The notes under the pieces were generated by a model, which saw only the letters and a list, made by a program, of their open reading frames with translations, did not search any database and was not told the DNA's origin. From positions 4,340,001 through 4,404,000 of the forward strand of contig NC_081332.1 of assembly GCF_022539665.2 (NCBI RefSeq): DNA of 64,000 bases, in the 5' to 3' direction. Below are positions 14,301-25,581 of this stretch, in pieces. The DNA is from Daphnia carinata (taxonomy: Eukaryota). How positions within the stretch are numbered: position 1 is the first letter of the stretch; every line of letters begins with the position of its first letter. Made by a program: the position numbers and the translations under genes.

Positions 14301-16313
14301 CGACAATAACGAGCTGAACCAGAAGCTTCTGTCCAACATCAACGCTTCCGGAAAACTGCACATGGTGCCGGCTTCCGTTCACGGCCGATTCGTCATCCGT
14401 TTCTGCGTTTGCGCTCAGGATGCCAAGGATGCTGACATTGATTACGCGTGGGATGTCATCACCGACTTTGCCACCGAGCTGCTCGAAGCCGAGATCGTCA
14501 AGGAGAAATCGGGATTGCCATTGGATGTTCTGGAGAACAGCAACGAGGAGGTTGGTCAGGTCGCACACAAGGTGGAAATTTCGGAGCTGATGGATCTAAT
14601 GGAACGCGTCCATATGCCTATTCAAAAGCAAAACAGTATTGCCAGTATTGGAAGGCAAGGCAGTCTGGCTAGTGTCGGAAGGCAACAAAGCCTTGCGATT
14701 ATCGGAAGGCAACAGAGCCTTGCAAGCATTGGAAGGCAACAGAGCCTCGCCTATATCGGAGAGGTTGGCAACAACCTTTCGGATGGTGGAGAGCAAGAGA
14801 TGGCCAACAAGCCAAGACAGAGACCAAGCCTTGCCAGGAGACTCACAAAGCGTCAGTTCAGTTTTACGGACACCATAGAATTCGTAGGGATGGTCAACAC
14901 CGCTCAAGATGAGAGCATGAATCCTTGAAGAGATTTAAAAATACGATTTTCTTTAGCAATATCTCAACCATATGCAGTTTATACAGACATTTCTTACTTT
15001 TAAGTTTTCGTGGGAATTGACAGGAGCAAAAAGATACATCTGGGTAAATTAAATAGTGCAAGAGACTAACGAAAGAAACAAACTAATATTTATCTCGACT
15101 GTGGAATGGATGCTGACGATGTCATGAATTCTCTAAACAGTCGGTTTTATTGATTGGACTGACTAGATGGTACGAAAACAGATACTTTATGTAGGACTAA
15201 CTTCGCAAAAAAAGCAATTTTGCAGTATACTTACTTTTATACTGTATCGATATATTGCGTAGTTAAATATTTTAAACAAGGGGTGGGGGATCGGGTTGCA
15301 TCAAGTATTGTGATTTTACTTTCATTTTATTTCTTTTTCCTCTTTCATTTATCCCCCACCAAAAAATATTATTTCTCCAGTTTTCTCTCGATTCGGCTTA
15401 TGTTTTCTTTGTTTTGTGTGTACATTCAACCGTTTTTACATTTTCTTTTTTCTTTTTTACTTCTTTCTTCGAATTTTGAGTTTCCTTTTGTTTTGACATT
15501 AATCTTGGTTCTATTCCTTGCAATTCAATGAACATTTCCCGAAAAATTTCGTTTTTTGTTTTTTATTTGCCTTCTTTCAGTTGTAGCTCATTTCGACCTT
15601 CATATGGGGTGAAGTGGTTGGAGGCTTAGCCTTTAAAAAGGGTTTGCCTAGGTTACCTATTCCTGTTGGTTACTCTCTAATAAGCTGACTTGATGAGGTT
15701 TCATGTCGGGTTCGGGGCAATTTCTTTTCTAGGTTTCAACGAATCCGAAATTGGCCGCAGCTGCTAGAAGAAGAGCCCTTCGCAGAAGTGTTGGAAACGA
15801 CTTGGAGTACAAACGTTCTTTCTTTGTCCGCATGGTCAGTGATCCCAAAATGTATAACCCCAAAATCGTAGCGAACTTGTCCTACTACTCGGATTCTAAT
15901 CCATTAACGGTTGCGTCAACCCAAGATAAAAAAGATACGCCGTAAGTATAAACGTCCAATCTTGGACTGTGTGCAATCAATCGTTTCGTAAATCATTCCT
16001 GAATTTCGTATTTTCCATTCAAGATCTTCTTGGATCAGCTGGCCACTGGGTCTTCTTCTGCAAGGGGTATTTGATGACCATTCGACCGCTAGACTTCGGT
16101 AATTATCACGAATAAAGTGAAGGACATTTTTTTTGCAACAGTTATCACTCACAGTTGCAACTGTTTGATAGTTTCCGCAATTGGGATACCAAAGTAACTC
16201 TGAAACCAACTGGATCGAATCATTACAACAGCACTCGACAAAGGTCAAAGTCTCCGTATCGAGATATTGATTCGACTGGTTCCAGCCGTTCTGAATCCCC
16301 CGAAAAATACTAG
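11389..16313 (+). CDS. Tdc2: Tyrosine decarboxylase, Tdc2-type (group II PLP-dependent decarboxylase)
   Basis: [53 protein letters not shown] (PLP lysine), [16 protein letters not shown]. Downstream exons 15733-15941, 16024-16108 and 16172-16313 encode the invertebrate TDC tail motifs [26 protein letters not shown] and RFRNWDT. Confidence 0.93.
14626..14760 (+). repeat. 5 x 27-bp coding tandem repeat, consensus peptide RQQSLASIG
   Basis: [45 protein letters not shown], in the open frame ending at 14928. Confidence 0.95.
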
Positions 16314-19054: not shown

Positions 19055-19470
19055 AGATATCTGCCGGGAATATTAAACAGTCTGTATTTCGAGTAACACA
19101 AAGAATGCTTTGAAATACAGTTTAAAGTTACTTAATTACATACCATGCTTCTCATCTAATATAGAATTGCTATTAACTAGTATTAATATGCAGATAAAGA
19201 TAGCACGGTGTTCGATATTTGGATATTAAAGCAGTTCAGGTAAATTTATTTTCTGGAAGGTACATGACCCAAGCAACTTTTTTTCCCTCAACAGGAATTT
19301 TTATAAGTTTAAGCCCAGTTCGAATTTTAATAAATCGTAAAGTCAAGCTCTCAATAAGATCTAAATTGAAAACGTACTTGATTTTCGTTTTCCGCTTATG
19401 AATTAAATACAAATACGGTTGATGGCTGTATATGGGTTTTAGAATTTAAAATTTAGAAGAAAAAATAGTG

Positions 19471-19770
19471 GTTATTTGTCGGCGTAAATTTTTTTGAAAG
19501 TGGTTGGAAGGCTATGTGTAGACTTTATAGTTTTTGAGTAATCTTAAATATAAATAAGGTGCGAATCGAAACCATTACTAGCGCGCCAGTACGCTACAGC
19601 GCTAGCGTGACACATCAAACTTTTTTGATTATTCAAAAACCATAAAGTCTACGTAAAACCTAATTTCGTTTTTCGTGTTCCTTGTTAAATTCTGAACCAT
19701 AATCATATATAGTTATGTAGATCTAATGATATTATTTTTTAATAGGAAAAAAATTTAAGCCCGACAAAAT
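19471..19770. repeat. Small nested inverted repeat (MITE-like) at the left edge of the large foldback
   Basis: TTATTTGTCGGCGTAAATTTTTTT (~19472-19494) mirrors AAAAAAATTTAAGCCCGACAAAAT (~19747-19770). GTAGACTTTATAGTTTTTGAGTAATC (19518-19543) mirrors GATTATTCAAAAACCATAAAGTCTAC (19627-19652). Confidence 0.75.
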
Positions 19771-20269
19771 CAGCCCGGCCTTCTGTTTTTTACGGTATAT
19801 TCAAAAAGTATAAGCTTAATATAAAGATAAACCAGATTTTCGTGATCAGCGATCAATTTCGCATTGGAATAATGTACTTTTAAGTAAATCTAGAATTTGA
19901 CGAAAATTGAAAAAGTGGGAAGGCTATAGCTTTCTTACTTTTTCAATTTTTGGACATTCTGTTTTTTACGGTTTATTCAAAAAGTATAAGCCTAATATAA
20001 AAATAAAATTTAATTTTGGCCAAATTTTTCATTTTGCTTAAAATATATGGCATATGGCAATCCGTTTTATATGGCAATCCGTTTTACATAAAAAAAAAAA
20101 ATGGCGGAAAAAAAAATCGCACTTTTTTCTCTTTTTTCTACTCGTAGCCATCTATCAGTCGGTTTCGTTATTACAGGCATGTAAGCAATTTGAGTTAATT
20201 GTATCCCATTAGCAGTTAATTGAGTAGCGTGGCTGGAGAACAACGCGTGGCTGGAGGAACAATTGAAAA

Positions 20270-21530
20270 ATGGATAAGATAATAAAACAAAAAAATGGTA
20301 AGTATAAACATTATTATATTGGTTTTCAATTATTAATTATTGTTTATTAGATCAAATTATGAAGCTGTAGGCCCAGTTATTGGAACAACACAAAATATTA
20401 GATAACAAAGCTAAGGATCGTAGGCCTAACACGTAATGATTCTATTTATTTGCTTTTATTCATTCGTGTTTTGTAGCTCAAATTTTGAGTCTTCAAGCTC
20501 AGCTAGGGGAAAAGAACAAATTGGAACGGAACAGTTTCCAAACAGTGAAGGAGGTTTTTCAAAACTCATCTCTAACTGAACGTAAGGATGAGTTGGCATT
20601 AGGCGAACACAGCCAGGTACCTAAAGTTTTCAAATAAGAATTCAAAATAAGTATAGAATTTTAAAAAACAATTATTTATTGTTTAGTTATTCAGTCCACC
20701 ACCTGACAGTGTGTTAAATTTAAATTCTGTTAGTGCTGCACTAAAAGAATCGTTAGTAATAAGCTCATGCAGTGAAGGAAGTGAACAATTGTGGGACCGT
20801 ATTTGGGCCGAAAATGGGTGTGGTACAGAAACCCAGAAATGGCACAAGTTCAACATGAAACATGGATTAGGTACTTTTCGGTTTTTTGTCTAGCGAAAAA
20901 GTATTTTTAATGCTATTATTTTGCATTCACAGATTTTAACGGGGGATCAGATCAAGTCTGGAAGTGTTACAGGATGGAAGAGTGAGCCTACAGATGAAAA
21001 AACACTGAGAGTGCATTACCGTAAGGTGTGAGGTAAATTAATAGAGTAATGCAAATTGCCTAATGAGAAGTACCATCTTGTGTTAATGAATCCAGTACAA
21101 CAGCAATCCTTTATAGTTCTGTCACAGCTAGAAGCCTCAAATAATTCTGCTTCTCTGTCTAAAGAACAACTTGTCCTTTACGTTCAGAGTGTTGGGGAAA
21201 CTGGGTACTTAAATGGCCCTAAAGATGTTTTAATTTTGCTGCTATTGCAGAGATGAACATCATACAGGGACTCTTTAGGTATGAAAGGATTTTTCTTCAA
21301 ATAATTTTGAATTTATGACGAAGAATTTCTCCTCCTTTTTGCCAACCAGGTCTTATCTACCAAAAAAAATTTTATCCAATAGGAAAGGATTTTCATGTAA
21401 TGGGAACACAACTATCAACAATGCAACATTCTACAGGTGCTAGTTTATCATTCAAGAGCCTTATACAATGAAGTTAATCTGCAATTTGTATGTCCTTTCC
21501 CAAGCTTCCACCAGAAGTTGAATCTATGAG
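20270..21530 (+). pseudogene. Degenerate intron-containing gene in the left arm
   Basis: ATG at 20270 followed by a chain of GT-AG introns. Exons read DQIMKL*AQLLEQHKILD, AQILSLQAQLGEKNKLERNSF, LFSPPPDSVLNLNSV...WDRIWAENG and ILTGDQIKSGSVTGWK. Stops and frameshifts are present. Confidence 0.6.
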
Positions 21531-22402
21531 TCATGTAAGTTCCATGATCAACAATTGATGTGTTTAACAGTGTTGTTTTTCTTTTCTCAATATAGGTTAA
21601 TAGTAACATTGGATCTGAAAAGATTCTTGGTTGGGGCAAGACACTGAATAAATTGTATTGATTGGATGGATGACATGACATTTCTATACTTAATTCGGAT
21701 TCCCCAGACGGTATTTGATATTAAAAAAATTGAAGTGCATATCTGGGCTCCCTTCTTTTCTGAAGCCCCGTTTCCCCTTGACTCATAATAAGCCCGTAGG
21801 GGGTCATGCCCCTACTGTACGGTATATATAAAAACAACATATACCGAGGTTTGGAGGGCTCTGGCCGGAAAGGGGACGTGGGGTGCCGCTTCGTCCGATG
21901 ATGTGTTCACGGAGGGTGACGTGGCTGCCCACAAATCCGAACTAAAGGTTAATCGCTCCTGTAAAAATGTTCCAAATCTTCAGCTCTTCTTCCGGCTTCT
22001 CTTAGCCAATCACCGGGTAATCTCCCCGGTGGGTCAACAAGGCAGTGTCTCCCCCTGCCTGGGTTGACGGCAACTTTTGAAAGGGCTATTGTGCCTTTTT
22101 AAAGTTGCAAAAATAATTGTAATGTGCAGAGAATTGTCAATAAATTTTTTTTTATAAAATGTTTTTTGCAAAATTTTTTTCTTTCATTGTCTGTGTTCGC
22201 TTTGTTCACACATTACATTTATCAACTTTTTTTTTTATTTAGCTTGCTCAATTCATTTTTATGGTTTTTGCCACCGTTGTATCGCTTATCTGTTAGTATT
22301 CAATTAGTATTTATTACACTTCTTGAATTCTTGAACTTAGACAAGGAACAACGTGTATTACCTTGATATTTTCTGAAGTAATTTTATACTTGTACATTGT
22401 TT

Positions 22403-22475
22403 TACTGGTATGGGAATCGATCCCCAGACATTCAGCGTGCAACGCCGATGCTCTAACATTGAGCCACGAGATATA
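22403..22475 (-). other. tRNA-like unit 1 (degenerate, anticodon position TGC)
   Basis: Minus strand TGGCTCAATGTTAGAGCA-TCGGC GTTGCAC GCTGA-...GGGATCGATTCCC: A box, anticodon-type stem-loop, B-box-like motif. Poor acceptor stem. Confidence 0.7.
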
Positions 22476-22574
22476 TCTATCATATTATTTCTATTATCGC
22501 ATATCATATGTTATAGTCTAGGATGTTTATGTAGTCTTTCACAAGTATATATTTATCTTTTTATAGCTTTCATA

Positions 22575-22645
22575 AGGTTCATAGCTCTTTGGTAGAGCAT
22601 TCAGCTGCGGTAACTGTTACCCTGGGTTCAAACCTTAGTAGATGT
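22575..22645 (+). other. tRNA-like unit 2 (degenerate)
   Basis: TAGCTCTTTGGTAGAGCA (A box/D arm) followed by CTGGGTTCAAACCTTAG (B box/T arm). Confidence 0.65.
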
Positions 22646-22726
22646 ATAAAGTTCTACGTTTCAATTTTATTCAAAGTGTAAATGCAAGTCCGCAAGTGAC
22701 TAGAAAAAAGCTAACCTGACATCATA

Positions 22727-22798
22727 TGATTCATGGCTCATTGGTATAGCATCGGCGCGGTATGCCGAACATCCAGGGTTCGATCCCTGGATAATAAT
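22727..22798 (+). other. tRNA-like unit 3 (degenerate, anticodon position GGT)
   Basis: TGGCTCATTGGTATAGCA-TCGGC GCGGTAT GCCGA-ACATCCAGGGTTCGATCCCTGG. Perfect 5-bp stem with 7-nt loop and canonical GGTTCGATCC B box. Acceptor stem only partly paired. Confidence 0.75.
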
Positions 22799-23589
22799 TG
22801 AATGCTTCCAGATAAACTATGCTTACAGGAAACAATGCTTACCATTAAACGTGGCATAAACAATAAAGGAGAATTGAGAAAGATAAATAAAAAAAAAGAT
22901 GATAAATGTAATGTGTGTAAACAGACAGTGAAAGAAATAAAATTTGCAAAAAAAATTTATAAAAACAAATTTATTGACAATTCTCTGCACATTACAATTA
23001 TTTTTGCAACTTTAAAAAGGCACAATAGCCATTTCAAAAGTTGCCGTCAACCCAGGCAGGGGGAGACACTGCCTTGTTGACCCACCGGGGAGATTACCCG
23101 GTGATTGGCTAAGAGAAGCCGGAAGAAGAGCTGAAGATTTGGAACATTTTTACAGGAGCGATTAACCTTTAGTTCGGATTTGTGGGCAGCCACGTCACCC
23201 TCCGTGAACACATCATCGGACGAAGCGGCACCCCACGTCCCCTTTCCGGCCAGAGCCCTCCAAACCTCGGTATATGTTGTTTTTATATATACCGTACAGT
23301 AGGGGCATGACCCCCTACGGGCTTATTATGAGTCAAGGGGAAACGGGGCTACGGAAAGGAAGGGAGCCCAGATATGCACTTCAATTTTTTAAATATCAAA
23401 TACCATCTGGGGAATCCGAATTAAGTATAGAAATGTCATGTCATCCATCCAATCAATACAATTTATTCAGTGTCTTGCCCCAACCAAGAATCTTTTCAGA
23501 TCCAATGTTACTATTAACCTATGCTGAGAAAAGAAAAACACCATTAAGCATCTCAATTGTTGCTCATGTGACTTACATGACTCACAGAT

Positions 23590-24840
23590 TCAATTTCTGG
23601 CAGAAGCTTGGGAAAGGCCATACAAATTGCAGATGAAAATCATTGTATAAGGCTCTTGAATGATAAAATAGCACCCATAGAATGTTGCATTGTTGATAGT
23701 TGTGTTCCCAGTATGCTGAAAATCCTTTCCTATTGGATAAATTTTTTTTTAGATTAGACATGGTTGGCAAAAAGCAGGAGAAATGCTTTGTCATAAATTC
23801 AAAAAATTTTCAAGAAAATTCCTTTCATACCTAAAAAGTCCATGTATGATGTTCATCGCTGCAATGCCAACGAAATGAAACATCTTTAGGGCCATTTAAG
23901 TACCCAGCTTCACCAACACTCTGAACATAAAGGACAAGTTGTTCTTTAGCAAGAGAAGCAAAATTATTTGAGGCTTCTAGCTGTGACAGAACTATAAAGG
24001 ATTGCTGTTACACAGGATTCATTCACACAAGATGGTACTTCTCATTAGACAATTTGCATACTCTATTACTTTACCTCATACCTTAATAGTAATGCACTTT
24101 CAATGTTTTTCAACTGTAGGCTCACTCTTCCCTCCTGTAACACTTCCAGACTTGACTTGATCCCCCGCTAAAATTCTGTGAATGCAAAATAATAGCATTA
24201 AAAATACTTTTTCGATAGACAAAAAACCGAAAAGTACCTAATTCATGTTTTATGTTGAACTCGTGCTATTTCTGGGTTTCCGTACCACACCCATTTTAAG
24301 CCCAAATACGGTCCCACAATTGTTCAGTTCCTTCGCTGCATGGACTTATTACTAACAATTCTTTTAGTGCAGCACTAACAGAATTTAAATTTAACCACTG
24401 TCAGGTGGTAGACTGAATAACTAAACAATAAATAATTGTTTTTAAAATTCTATACTTATTTTGAATTCTTATTTGAAAAGTTTAGGCTCCTGACTGTGTT
24501 CTCCTCCTGCCAACTCATCCTCATGTTCAGTTATGGATGAGTTTTGAAAAACCTCCTTCACTGTTTGGAAACTGTTCCGTTCCAATTTGTTCTTTTCCCC
24601 TACTGAGCTTGAAGACTCAAAATTTGAGCTACAAAACACAAATGAATAAAAGCAAATAAATAGAATCATTACGTGTTAGGCCTTACCGATCCTTAGCTTT
24701 TTGTTATCTAATATTTTGTGTTGTTCCAATAACTGGGCCTACAGCTTCATAATTTGATCTAATAAACAATAATTAATAATTGAAAACCAATATAATAATG
24801 TTTATACTTACCATTTTTTTGTTTTATTATCTTATCCATT
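23590..24840 (-). pseudogene. Degenerate intron-containing gene in the right arm (mirror copy)
   Basis: Reverse complement of 20270-21530 with scattered substitutions and indels. Shares the in-frame TAG (24739-24741). Confidence 0.6.
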
Positions 24841-25581
24841 TTTCAATTGTTCCTCCAGCCACGCGTTATTCTCTCCATCCACGCTACAGAACTAACTGCG
24901 AATGGCATCCAATGGACTGAAATTGCCTAAGCCAGTAATAACGAGTCTGAGCGGTAGATGGCTACGTGTCGGAAAAAAAGAAAAAAGTGTGATCTTTTTT
25001 TTTTTTTTTGGCGAAATTTTTTTTTTTTTTGTGTAAAACGGATTGCCATATGCCATAGCTATTCACGAAAATAAGGTTTATTTTTGAGTTGGCCTTATGG
25101 TTTTTGACTTAAACAAAAAAAAAACAGAAAGTCGGTCTTATTTTGTCGGGCGTACAATCTTCTATCTAAAAGACTAATCGAAAAAAAAATTTGATTTCCA
25201 TGATATTCATTCAACTTTGAATCTATGTCATGTATATTAATAATCATTGTATAAAAAGGTTTTTAAAAATGAAAAGTAGAGCTTATTTTGTCGGGTTAAA
25301 ATTTGTTGCTACAAAAAATTCACTTGGAATTTGATATATATCACAGTTTATGCTCCAAAGTTTAATGCTGATTTCGGGAAAAAATAGTGATTTTCTCGTC
25401 GGACTAGCCTTTGTTGTACTAAAAGGTAATAACGTGCTGCTAATAAATATAAATTCAAACTTTTTAACAAAATATAACTTTATTTTCCAACAAACTACAG
25501 TAACGCAGGAGTTAAGATTATGGACTCCTTTAGTTTTATTAGAAATTAATTATTTCTTAATTAAAAAAAAAAATAAACTGC

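What the first reader, a model, noticed from the sequence alone, without database searches (positions are those of the whole stretch)
19750..25155. ~5.4 kb palindromic (foldback) element with a tRNA-like core
Seen: the interval between SSR3 and TMEM19 is a mirror image about ~22557. From outside in, each arm has AT-rich TTATTTTGTCGGG-type repeats, an inward-pointing decayed spliced gene, a GC-rich hairpin block and a tRNA-like unit. The outer arm portions differ by many substitutions, so this is not a simple read-chimera palindrome. Inference: a non-autonomous foldback transposon, or a tail-to-tail dimer of an element, with an architecture I do not recognise. Read-through transcription would fold into more than 2 kb of dsRNA, a potential endo-siRNA source.
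Basis: partly seen in the sequence, partly recalled or inferred. Interest (0 to 1): 0.85.

Follow-up and report, generated by a model that had tools for sequence, protein, structure and literature searches.

The report
Mirror-image IS3EU-like transposon in water flea
This 5-kb stretch of a water-flea genome is a real mirror image of itself, each half a broken copy of a gene family spread over the whole genome, and it is likely a dead copy of a jumping-DNA element that moves as one giant palindrome, a build also found with a clean insertion scar in what is likely an unrelated animal.

Summary
The palindrome is real: arms 20046-22274 and 22851-25057, with 139 substitutions and 22 indels. Each arm is a pseudogene of a spliced gene family with 95 annotated sequences on ten large Daphnia carinata contigs. 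The mirror ends exactly at TATGG...CCATA, the published IS3EU end signature. A D. magna relative runs from the shared segment into the N-terminal region of IS3EU-type transposases. At this copy no 6-bp target duplication and no catalytic core were found, so it is IS3EU-like, not a proven member. The outer AT-rich repeats are likely a separate repeat it landed in. The three tRNA-like units are not tRNA genes. An 8.9-kb IS3EU-type palindrome with a perfect 6-bp duplication in another genome (L014) indicates that this build can move as a unit. Best reading: a non-autonomous giant-palindrome IS3EU derivative with patchy arm-to-arm gene conversion (about 0.6). The dsRNA/siRNA idea is untested.

The parts
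20046..25057 (.). Element proper: 5012-nt palindrome with TATGG...CCATA ends
   Evidence: Arm homology starts and stops at these bases, 24 nt perfect at the tips; an X1 contig has a joint at 20046 / 25057
20046..22274 (+). Left arm
22851..25057 (-). Right arm
20270..22144 (+). Left pseudogene: spliced, ATG at 20270, stop in codon 16 (20368-20370), family reading frame in exons 1-4 and the start of exon 5, long spliced tail, AATAAA at 22139
22970..24839 (-). Right pseudogene: same stop in codon 16, further frameshifts and stops, AATAAA at 22975-22970
20690..20824 (+). Exon-4 segment shared (60% over 45 aa) with the leader of a D. magna IS3EU-type transposase remnant (P0057); right-arm copy 24284-24394
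21796..22066 (.). GC-rich hairpin block in the last exon of the left arm, inside a 319-nt run (21764-22082) identical in both arms
23048..23318 (.). Mirror copy of the GC-rich hairpin block
22275..22850 (.). Spacer; its two halves are still 72% alike over 123 aligned bases; variant copies of its left, middle and right parts are in X1
22411..22466 (-). tRNA-like unit with A and B boxes, facing outward; no acceptor stem matched
22582..22637 (+). Third, more diverged tRNA-like unit
22734..22789 (+). tRNA-like unit with A and B boxes, facing outward; 40 of 56 bases match the left one
19756..20045 (+). Outer AT-rich repeat, left part (CCCGACAAAAT motif at 19760 after TTAAG; internal 51-nt duplication); likely the older repeat in which the element sits
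   Evidence: several variant contigs in X1
25058..25299 (-). Outer AT-rich repeat, right part, with the motif at 25137-25150 and again at 25282-25295 followed by TTAA

Best explanation
The stretch 20046-25057 is a palindrome of two broken copies of one spliced gene with IS3EU-type ends, and it is likely a dead, non-autonomous copy of an IS3EU-derived DNA transposon that moves as a whole palindrome. Shown: the mirror, the TATGG...CCATA tips, the spliced family dispersed over ten large contigs, and the link of its exon 4 to a D. magna protein that continues into an IS3EU-type N-terminal region. Inferred: (1) an ancestor lost its right end and gained an inverted copy of its left part, so both ends carry the same terminal sequence and stay usable by a transposase supplied in trans; (2) it spread to dozens of sites and here landed in an older AT-rich repeat; (3) the arms exchange sequence by gene conversion in patches, while the spacer escapes and has drifted to about 72%; (4) the gene lost its catalytic core, and the copies still transcribed encode only 111-180-aa remnants. 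Whether read-through RNA forms long hairpins and small RNAs, as proposed for Mu killer, is untested.
For: Ends: homology stops exactly at TATGG / CCATA; TAYGG occurs 1.09 times per kb per strand in the window; the signature TAYGG..CCRTA is printed for fungal IS3EU (PMC12730594) and was seen here on two fetched elements with 6-bp duplications (L014, L017). Gene: 14 clusters, 95 sequences, all named D. carinata, 84-95% identical; 65 loci named, on contigs of 10 lengths, 7.9-14.4 Mb. P0057 of D. magna shares 30 of 54 residues with the family and its residues 55-162 match a profile of rva_4 transposases at 31.6 bits, E 2.7e-10 among 59 proteins; the next best scored 0.0 bits. Palindrome as unit: no inner terminal repeat in the spacer; spacer halves 72% alike, score 67 against at most 40 in 300 shuffles; variant contigs of all three spacer parts in X1; 7 gaps of one among 63 gene ids against at most 4 in 100,000 random draws, six of the seven between proteins identical over their shared length on one contig. 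Precedent: L014, arms 4366 nt with 2 differences, TACGG...CCGTA ends, direct 6-mer CACGCA, splitting a host reading frame that resumes in frame. Conversion: patchy identity; both arms share a stop in codon 16, yet in exon 4 they carry different common family states at five of eight differing positions. IS3EU is listed at 0.05% of the D. pulex assembly (PMC8594854).
Against: No 6-bp duplication: AAAATA vs GCTATT, and none of the 6 end pairs tested has under 3 mismatches. No DDE core: Pfam blank on 9 whole frames and 36 pieces for rva_4, profile blank, and a frameshift- and intron-aware alignment scored 17.7 and 20.7 against a control median of 18.3 and maximum of 25.5, although it finds real IS3EU genes up to 20-30% random decay. 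No intact partner transposase was found. The link to IS3EU rests on a 45-54-aa segment upstream of the conserved region and on one annotated protein plus one unnamed cluster. Only 13 of 65 named loci lie in consecutive sets; ids are not strict map positions (one gap of two joins different contigs), orientation is unknown, and identical twins could be assembly or annotation artefacts. The codon-16 stop may be common among unannotated copies. The same table gives IS3EU 0.00% in D. magna. No genome or long reads were available.
Confidence: 0.6

Rival explanations
1. The mobile or duplicated unit is a single arm (an IS3EU-derived monomer or a lineage-specific host gene family), and the palindrome is a local accident: two copies of different subtypes came to lie tail to tail and were then partly converted.
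For: The arms carry different common family states in exon 4; no target duplication joins the two ends; 52 of 65 named loci have no consecutive partner among those listed.
Against: A monomer needs an inner end and none is seen. The spacer halves are far more diverged (72%) than the arms, and variants of both halves and of the middle exist in X1. Consecutive twins recur six times, four of them 4-10 residues from any other stored protein. Ragged protein ends (14 of 54 stop at one early codon) do not look like a conserved host gene.
Confidence: 0.2
2. The whole 5.4-5.5 kb, out to the CCCGACAAAAT motifs, is one foldback element of a TTAA-targeting kind (piggyBac/Pokey-like), which captured a piece of an IS3EU gene.
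For: TTAA lies next to the left motif (19755-19758, one extra G) and directly after the outer right motif (25296-25299); Pokey starts TTAA-CCC (PMC2884549 supplement); the outer DNA is multicopy in X1.
Against: The outer parts are 73% alike, unequal in length and off axis; the in-register right motif is followed by GTAC, not TTAA; the sharp edge, an X1 joint and the IS3EU signature coincide at 20046 / 25057; the 11-nt motif was not found in the D. pulex supplement as held (cells are cut).
Confidence: 0.13
3. Assembly artefact: two haplotypes or paralogues, or a fold-back read, joined in inverted orientation.
For: No long read or second assembly could be checked; no listed X1 contig spans the stretch.
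Against: 139 substitutions and 22 indels between arms, with both states present in the family; a unique 576-nt spacer; different genes on the two flanks.
Confidence: 0.05

Closest known systems
IS3EU / GingerRoot DNA transposons (PMC10045372, PMC12730594, PMC6839031; passages read)
   Same: TA..TA ends, here the fuller TAYGG..CCRTA; inverted ends; gene related through D. magna P0057 to the N-terminus of rva_4 (PF24764) transposases.
   Different: Inverted repeats are 2.2 kb and hold the gene itself (over 30 bp and 100-150 bp in the papers, 394 nt in L017); no DDE core detected; no 6-bp duplication at this copy; three tRNA-like units in the centre.
Palindromic IS3EU-type element L014 (G003:C16, fetched here)
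   Same: Whole element is a mirror with TAYGG..CCRTA tips and an inward transposase-type gene in each arm.
   Different: L014 has 2 differences in 4366 nt, a 137-nt spacer, a perfect 6-bp duplication and a recognisable rva_4 gene (alignment score 138); it was seen once in full in that genome.
Mu killer of maize (PMC3440606; passages read)
   Same: Two copies of the same transposon end, each followed by part of the transposase gene, facing each other.
   Different: Mu killer is one MULE-derived locus with a shown silencing effect; this is likely a multicopy family of another superfamily, with no silencing data.
Foldback transposons such as Galileo, FB and Tetris (search listing only; details recalled)
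   Same: Very long terminal inverted repeats of uneven length.
   Different: Their long repeats are largely non-coding or tandem modules (recalled); here each repeat is a spliced gene.
Gene-bearing palindromes with arm-to-arm conversion (Y chromosomes, Adineta, Folsomia; PMC7953838 passages)
   Same: Inverted gene copies with converted tracts around a diverging spacer (conversion inferred here).
   Different: Those hold host genes at fixed loci; these arms are pseudogenes of a dispersed family with transposon-type tips.

Membership tests
IS3EU / GingerRoot | Ends TA..TA (TAYGG..CCRTA) | tested here: met
   TATGG at 20046 and CCATA at 25057, exactly at the edge of arm homology
IS3EU / GingerRoot | Terminal inverted repeats | tested here: met
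   24 nt perfect, 2.2 kb at 91.6%
IS3EU / GingerRoot | 6-bp target-site duplication | tested here: not met
   0 of 6 end pairs; best has 3 mismatches.
IS3EU / GingerRoot | DDD/E transposase core (rva_4) in the element | tested here: not met
   sensitivity ends near 20-30% decay. Not required of a non-autonomous copy
IS3EU / GingerRoot | Gene descends from an IS3EU-type transposase | tested here: inconclusive
   Indirect: 45-54 aa shared with P0057, whose next 108 aa match the rva_4-type N-terminal profile at 31.6 bits
IS3EU / GingerRoot | Copies with the same ends in unrelated flanks; autonomous partner in the genome | not testable with these tools
   No genome held; dispersal shown only through proteins
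piggyBac / Pokey | TTAA duplication with CC..GG ends | tested here: inconclusive
   Fits only the outer motifs, with one extra base on the left; the in-register pair has TTAA vs GTAC
Kolobok | TTAA duplication with RR..YY ends (PMC9587614) | tested here: not met
   Bases inside TTAA are GC on the left and CC on the outer right
Crypton | Tyrosine recombinase / GCR1_C; no terminal inverted repeats (PMC3212892) | tested here: not met
   Atlas lead of 0.77 only; no Pfam hit in 14 proteins; long inverted ends present
Penelope-like elements | Hammerhead ribozyme in the terminal repeat and a reverse transcriptase (features recalled) | tested here: not met
   No hammerhead by Rfam at E<=1 or by pattern; no RT hit
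tRNA gene | Full cloverleaf above the Rfam cut-off or called by ARAGORN | tested here: not met
   0 genes; 24.8 and 23.3 bits against 29, model positions 8-63 of 71 only
Mu killer-like silencing locus (works like) | Hairpin or antisense RNA and siRNA that silence the parent family | not testable with these tools
   Only unstranded contigs were available

The most novel reading that the evidence does not exclude
IS3EU-type transposons repeatedly, in distant animals, turn into giant gene-bearing palindromes that still jump as a unit; in D. carinata one such form has become a family of many dozens of spliced, transcribed loci that annotation counts as a species-specific gene expansion, whose arms keep converting each other and whose tRNA-like centre decides whether the copy makes two separate mRNAs or one long silencing hairpin.
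Probability: 0.3. Interest if true: 0.75.

Novelty: new variant of a known kind. Interest (0 to 1): 0.5.

Why it matters
If true, about a hundred 'uncharacterized' D. carinata proteins are remnants of one transposon, which bears on gene-family counts in Daphnia. It would also show that a little-studied superfamily has a recurrent foldback form in which the entire left half, gene included, serves as the terminal repeat. Dozens of natural palindromes of different ages in a clonal lab animal would allow direct measurement of arm-to-arm gene conversion and a test of whether such elements make their own silencing RNA. This particular copy is dead and of modest interest alone.

Tried and rejected
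No whole genome is held, so copy number, flanks and empty sites were not counted. No RNA holder was listed by the run search; 1 of 2 listed runs held the stretch, at 0.31 of its words, and X2 laid nothing; parts without cover prove nothing. Summed contig depth is high over the arm gene and falls near the AATAAA sites, but contigs cannot show level, strand or ends, so this is not used as evidence. DNA pattern scans for the hairpin block: 0 in viral and 0 in metagenome contigs. Protein scans for related loci: one 10-residue chance match in viral contigs, none in metagenomes, none for P0057. Homologue searches: none among longer proteins, none for a second frame of the 3' region; the search of 1.84 billion representatives gave 3 proteins, all on exon 4. 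Pfam, NCBIfam and PDB sequence searches named neither the family nor P0057. AlphaFold models were poor (pLDDT 46 and 42) and the fold search gave nothing under E 0.001. Atlas: no hit for exon 4, a weak GCR1_C lead for P0008, dropped. My by-eye impression that the spliced tail is a decayed DDE core failed its test. By-eye guesses of KDZ/Zisupton, Helitron and densovirus origin found no support in these scans and were dropped without a dedicated test. No third-position bias between arms. A first script for the exon-4 comparison had a frame error and was redone (2 of 56 proteins left out of that comparison).
Full report
OBSERVATION. The palindrome is real. A global alignment of 20046-22274 with the reverse complement of 22851-25057 gives 2048 matches, 139 mismatches and 22 indels in 2249 columns. 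The inner axis is 22557. The flanking exons match TRAP-gamma and DUF92. Identity is patchy: 83% (20046-20235), 98% (20236-20585), 93%, 93%, 89% (21231-21600), 97%, 99.5% (21771-22150), 89%. The longest perfect run is 319 nt; 2000 simulations of even divergence gave at most 162. Outside 20046 / 25057 there is only a 100-nt match at 73% on another axis, 22455. The CCCGACAAAAT motif stands once on the left and twice on the right. The GC block folds better than all 100 shuffles on each strand. ARAGORN finds no tRNA, Rfam gives two matches below its cut-off, and a pattern for A plus B boxes finds three units, all in the spacer and none elsewhere in 64 kb.

THE GENE. Each arm holds an inward, spliced gene. 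Contigs of run X1 skip its introns; X1 is on record as DNA by guess but also skips the introns of the neighbouring genes, so I treat it as RNA (inference). 734 contigs were laid on the left stretch, many with other letters, which points to many copies. A protein search found 14 clusters, 95 sequences in all, 114-162 aa for the representatives, 84-95% identical, every one named as an uncharacterized protein of Daphnia carinata. I saw 56 of the 95; they name 65 loci on contigs of ten lengths, 7.9-14.4 Mb (that the species has ten chromosomes is recalled). The window is therefore D. carinata or a very near relative (inference). Both arms are pseudogenes: they share a TAG in codon 16, where 52 of 55 aligned proteins have Q, and the right arm has further breaks. 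The family's ends are ragged: 14 of 54 stop at one early codon that is also a stop in the right arm.

THE LINK TO IS3EU. A search of 1.84 billion representatives returned three proteins: one family member, P0057 of D. magna and an unnamed cluster. P0057 shares 30 of 54 residues with the family and then goes on differently. That continuation looked to me like the start of an IS3EU-type transposase, a recalled lead that Pfam, NCBIfam, PDB and a poor model did not confirm. To test it I fetched transposase loci with a short motif (11 loci), confirmed 7 of 7 tested frames as rva_4, PF24764, and built a profile from 18 pieces. It matches P0057 residues 55-162 at 31.6 bits, E 2.7e-10 among 59 stored proteins, and nothing else. 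The ends agree: arm homology begins at TATGG (20046) and ends at CCATA (25057), and an X1 contig has a joint at these bases. TAYGG..CCRTA is printed for fungal IS3EU (PMC12730594, passages); TA..TA ends and mostly 6-bp duplications are given for the superfamily (PMC10045372 and PMC6839031, passages). I predicted IS3EU from the protein before checking the ends; the motif occurs 1.09 times per kb per strand.

RESULTS AGAINST. There is no 6-bp duplication at this copy (0 of 6 end pairs). No catalytic core is detectable: profile scores on 3192 six-frame pieces stay at background, and a frameshift- and intron-aware alignment gives 17.7 and 20.7 against a median of 18.3 and a maximum of 25.5 in 60 control stretches. 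The same method scores real genes at 138 and 473 and loses them between 20 and 40% random decay. No intact partner was found. So the element is IS3EU-like; formal membership is not shown.

IS THE PALINDROME THE UNIT? Four lines say yes, none decisive. (1) The spacer has no copy of the terminal repeat. (2) The spacer halves are related but only 72% alike over 123 bases (score 67, at most 40 in 300 shuffles), older than the arms look, and X1 holds variant contigs of its left, middle and right parts. (3) Among 63 gene ids of one series (2 of 65 left out as a later series) there are 7 gaps of one, against at most 4 in 100,000 random draws; six join proteins identical over their shared length on one contig, and four of these twins are 4-10 residues from any other stored protein. 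Ids are not strict positions, orientation is unknown, and twins could be artefacts. (4) In another genome, two convergent rva_4 matches proved to be an 8869-nt palindrome, L014, with 2 differences in 4366 nt, TACGG...CCGTA ends and a direct CACGCA on both sides, splitting a host reading frame that resumes in frame. A fold-back artefact would give inverted, not direct, flanks. It was found once in full in that genome. L017 is an ordinary element with TATGG...CCATA and a 6-bp duplication.

ARM HISTORY. In exon 4 the arms differ at eight residues. At five, both states are common in the family; the left arm matches 15 of 54 proteins at 7 of 8. Yet the 5' 350 nt, with the shared stop, and the last exon are 97-99.5% alike. 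This mosaic fits patchy gene conversion between arms or with other copies (inference). Selection on the hairpin block as a cis signal is an alternative for the last exon. The shared stop may be common among unannotated copies, which I could not see.

OUTER REPEAT. 19756-20045 and 25058-25299 are related AT-rich DNA with TTAA beside two of three motifs. I read them as an older repeat that received the insertion, with loss of the duplication by later rearrangement (inference). The rival is that they are the true ends of a TTAA-type foldback element; Pokey begins TTAA-CCC (PMC2884549, passages and supplement file 1 part 2, where cells are cut at 400 letters; PMC3849761, passages).

RNA IDEA. Read-through would fold into about 2.2 kb of duplex, as proposed for Mu killer, which also has two copies of one end and partial transposase genes facing each other (PMC3440606, passages). 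But each arm has an AATAAA at its inner end (22139, 22970) and three tRNA-like units lie between them. Unstranded contigs laid on one half at a time cannot decide this.

WHAT IS KNOWN. Ten literature searches (listings only) and passages of twelve papers (those above plus PMC3212892, PMC9587614, PMC8594854, PMC7953838, PMC10853768 and bioRxiv 10.1101/2021.09.26.461848) showed no description of this family or of palindromic IS3EU elements. Two unchecked notes of this scan report giant palindromes with IS3EU-type ends in sea urchins; I saw them after reaching this reading and did not test them.

VERDICT. Observation confirmed with corrected ends. Best reading: non-autonomous giant-palindrome derivative of an IS3EU-type transposon, 0.6; local pairing of monomers 0.2; TTAA-type foldback 0.13; artefact 0.05. 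New variant of a known kind. Interest 0.5.

Noticed in passing
L014:5163-14031 (G003:C16): 8869-nt palindrome, arms 4366 nt with 2 differences, TACGG...CCGTA ends, direct 6-mer CACGCA, spliced rva_4-type gene inward and further outward reading frames in each arm; it splits a long host reading frame.
   Followed up: yes
L017:1845-9151 (G003:C10): Ordinary IS3EU-type element: TATGG...CCATA, 394-nt inverted ends, 6-mer GTGTAG, open rva_4 frame; it lies inside another element with 626-nt inverted repeats.
   Followed up: partly
G002, G003, G004: Three assemblies filed as prokaryotes hold 9, 19 and 14 rva_4 matches, several with intron-like breaks; this looks like animal host DNA inside the bins.
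   Followed up: no
run X1: Guessed as DNA, but its contigs skip GT..AG introns of the flanking genes, so it behaves as RNA.
   Followed up: partly
window 21794-21822 and mirror 23292-23320: A CCGTA and a TACGG lie 19 nt apart inside the hairpin block, like an end and a start of IS3EU type; may be chance at about one such motif per kb. The block also shows CCAAT-, CRE- and TATA-like words in an order that would suit an outward promoter (by eye, motifs recalled).
   Followed up: no
window 19450-19750: Further multicopy AT-rich DNA with a 26-nt inverted repeat (19518-19543 / 19627-19652) around a GC-rich centre; probably a small related repeat.
   Followed up: no
window 14628-14747: 27-nt tandem repeat, 4.4 copies, in frame in the tail of a decarboxylase-like gene (gene name recalled, no Pfam hit on that exon).
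   Followed up: no
window 22802-23080 (+): 92-codon open frame running outward from the spacer into the right arm, with a CxxC; no Pfam hit, not open in the left arm.
   Followed up: partly
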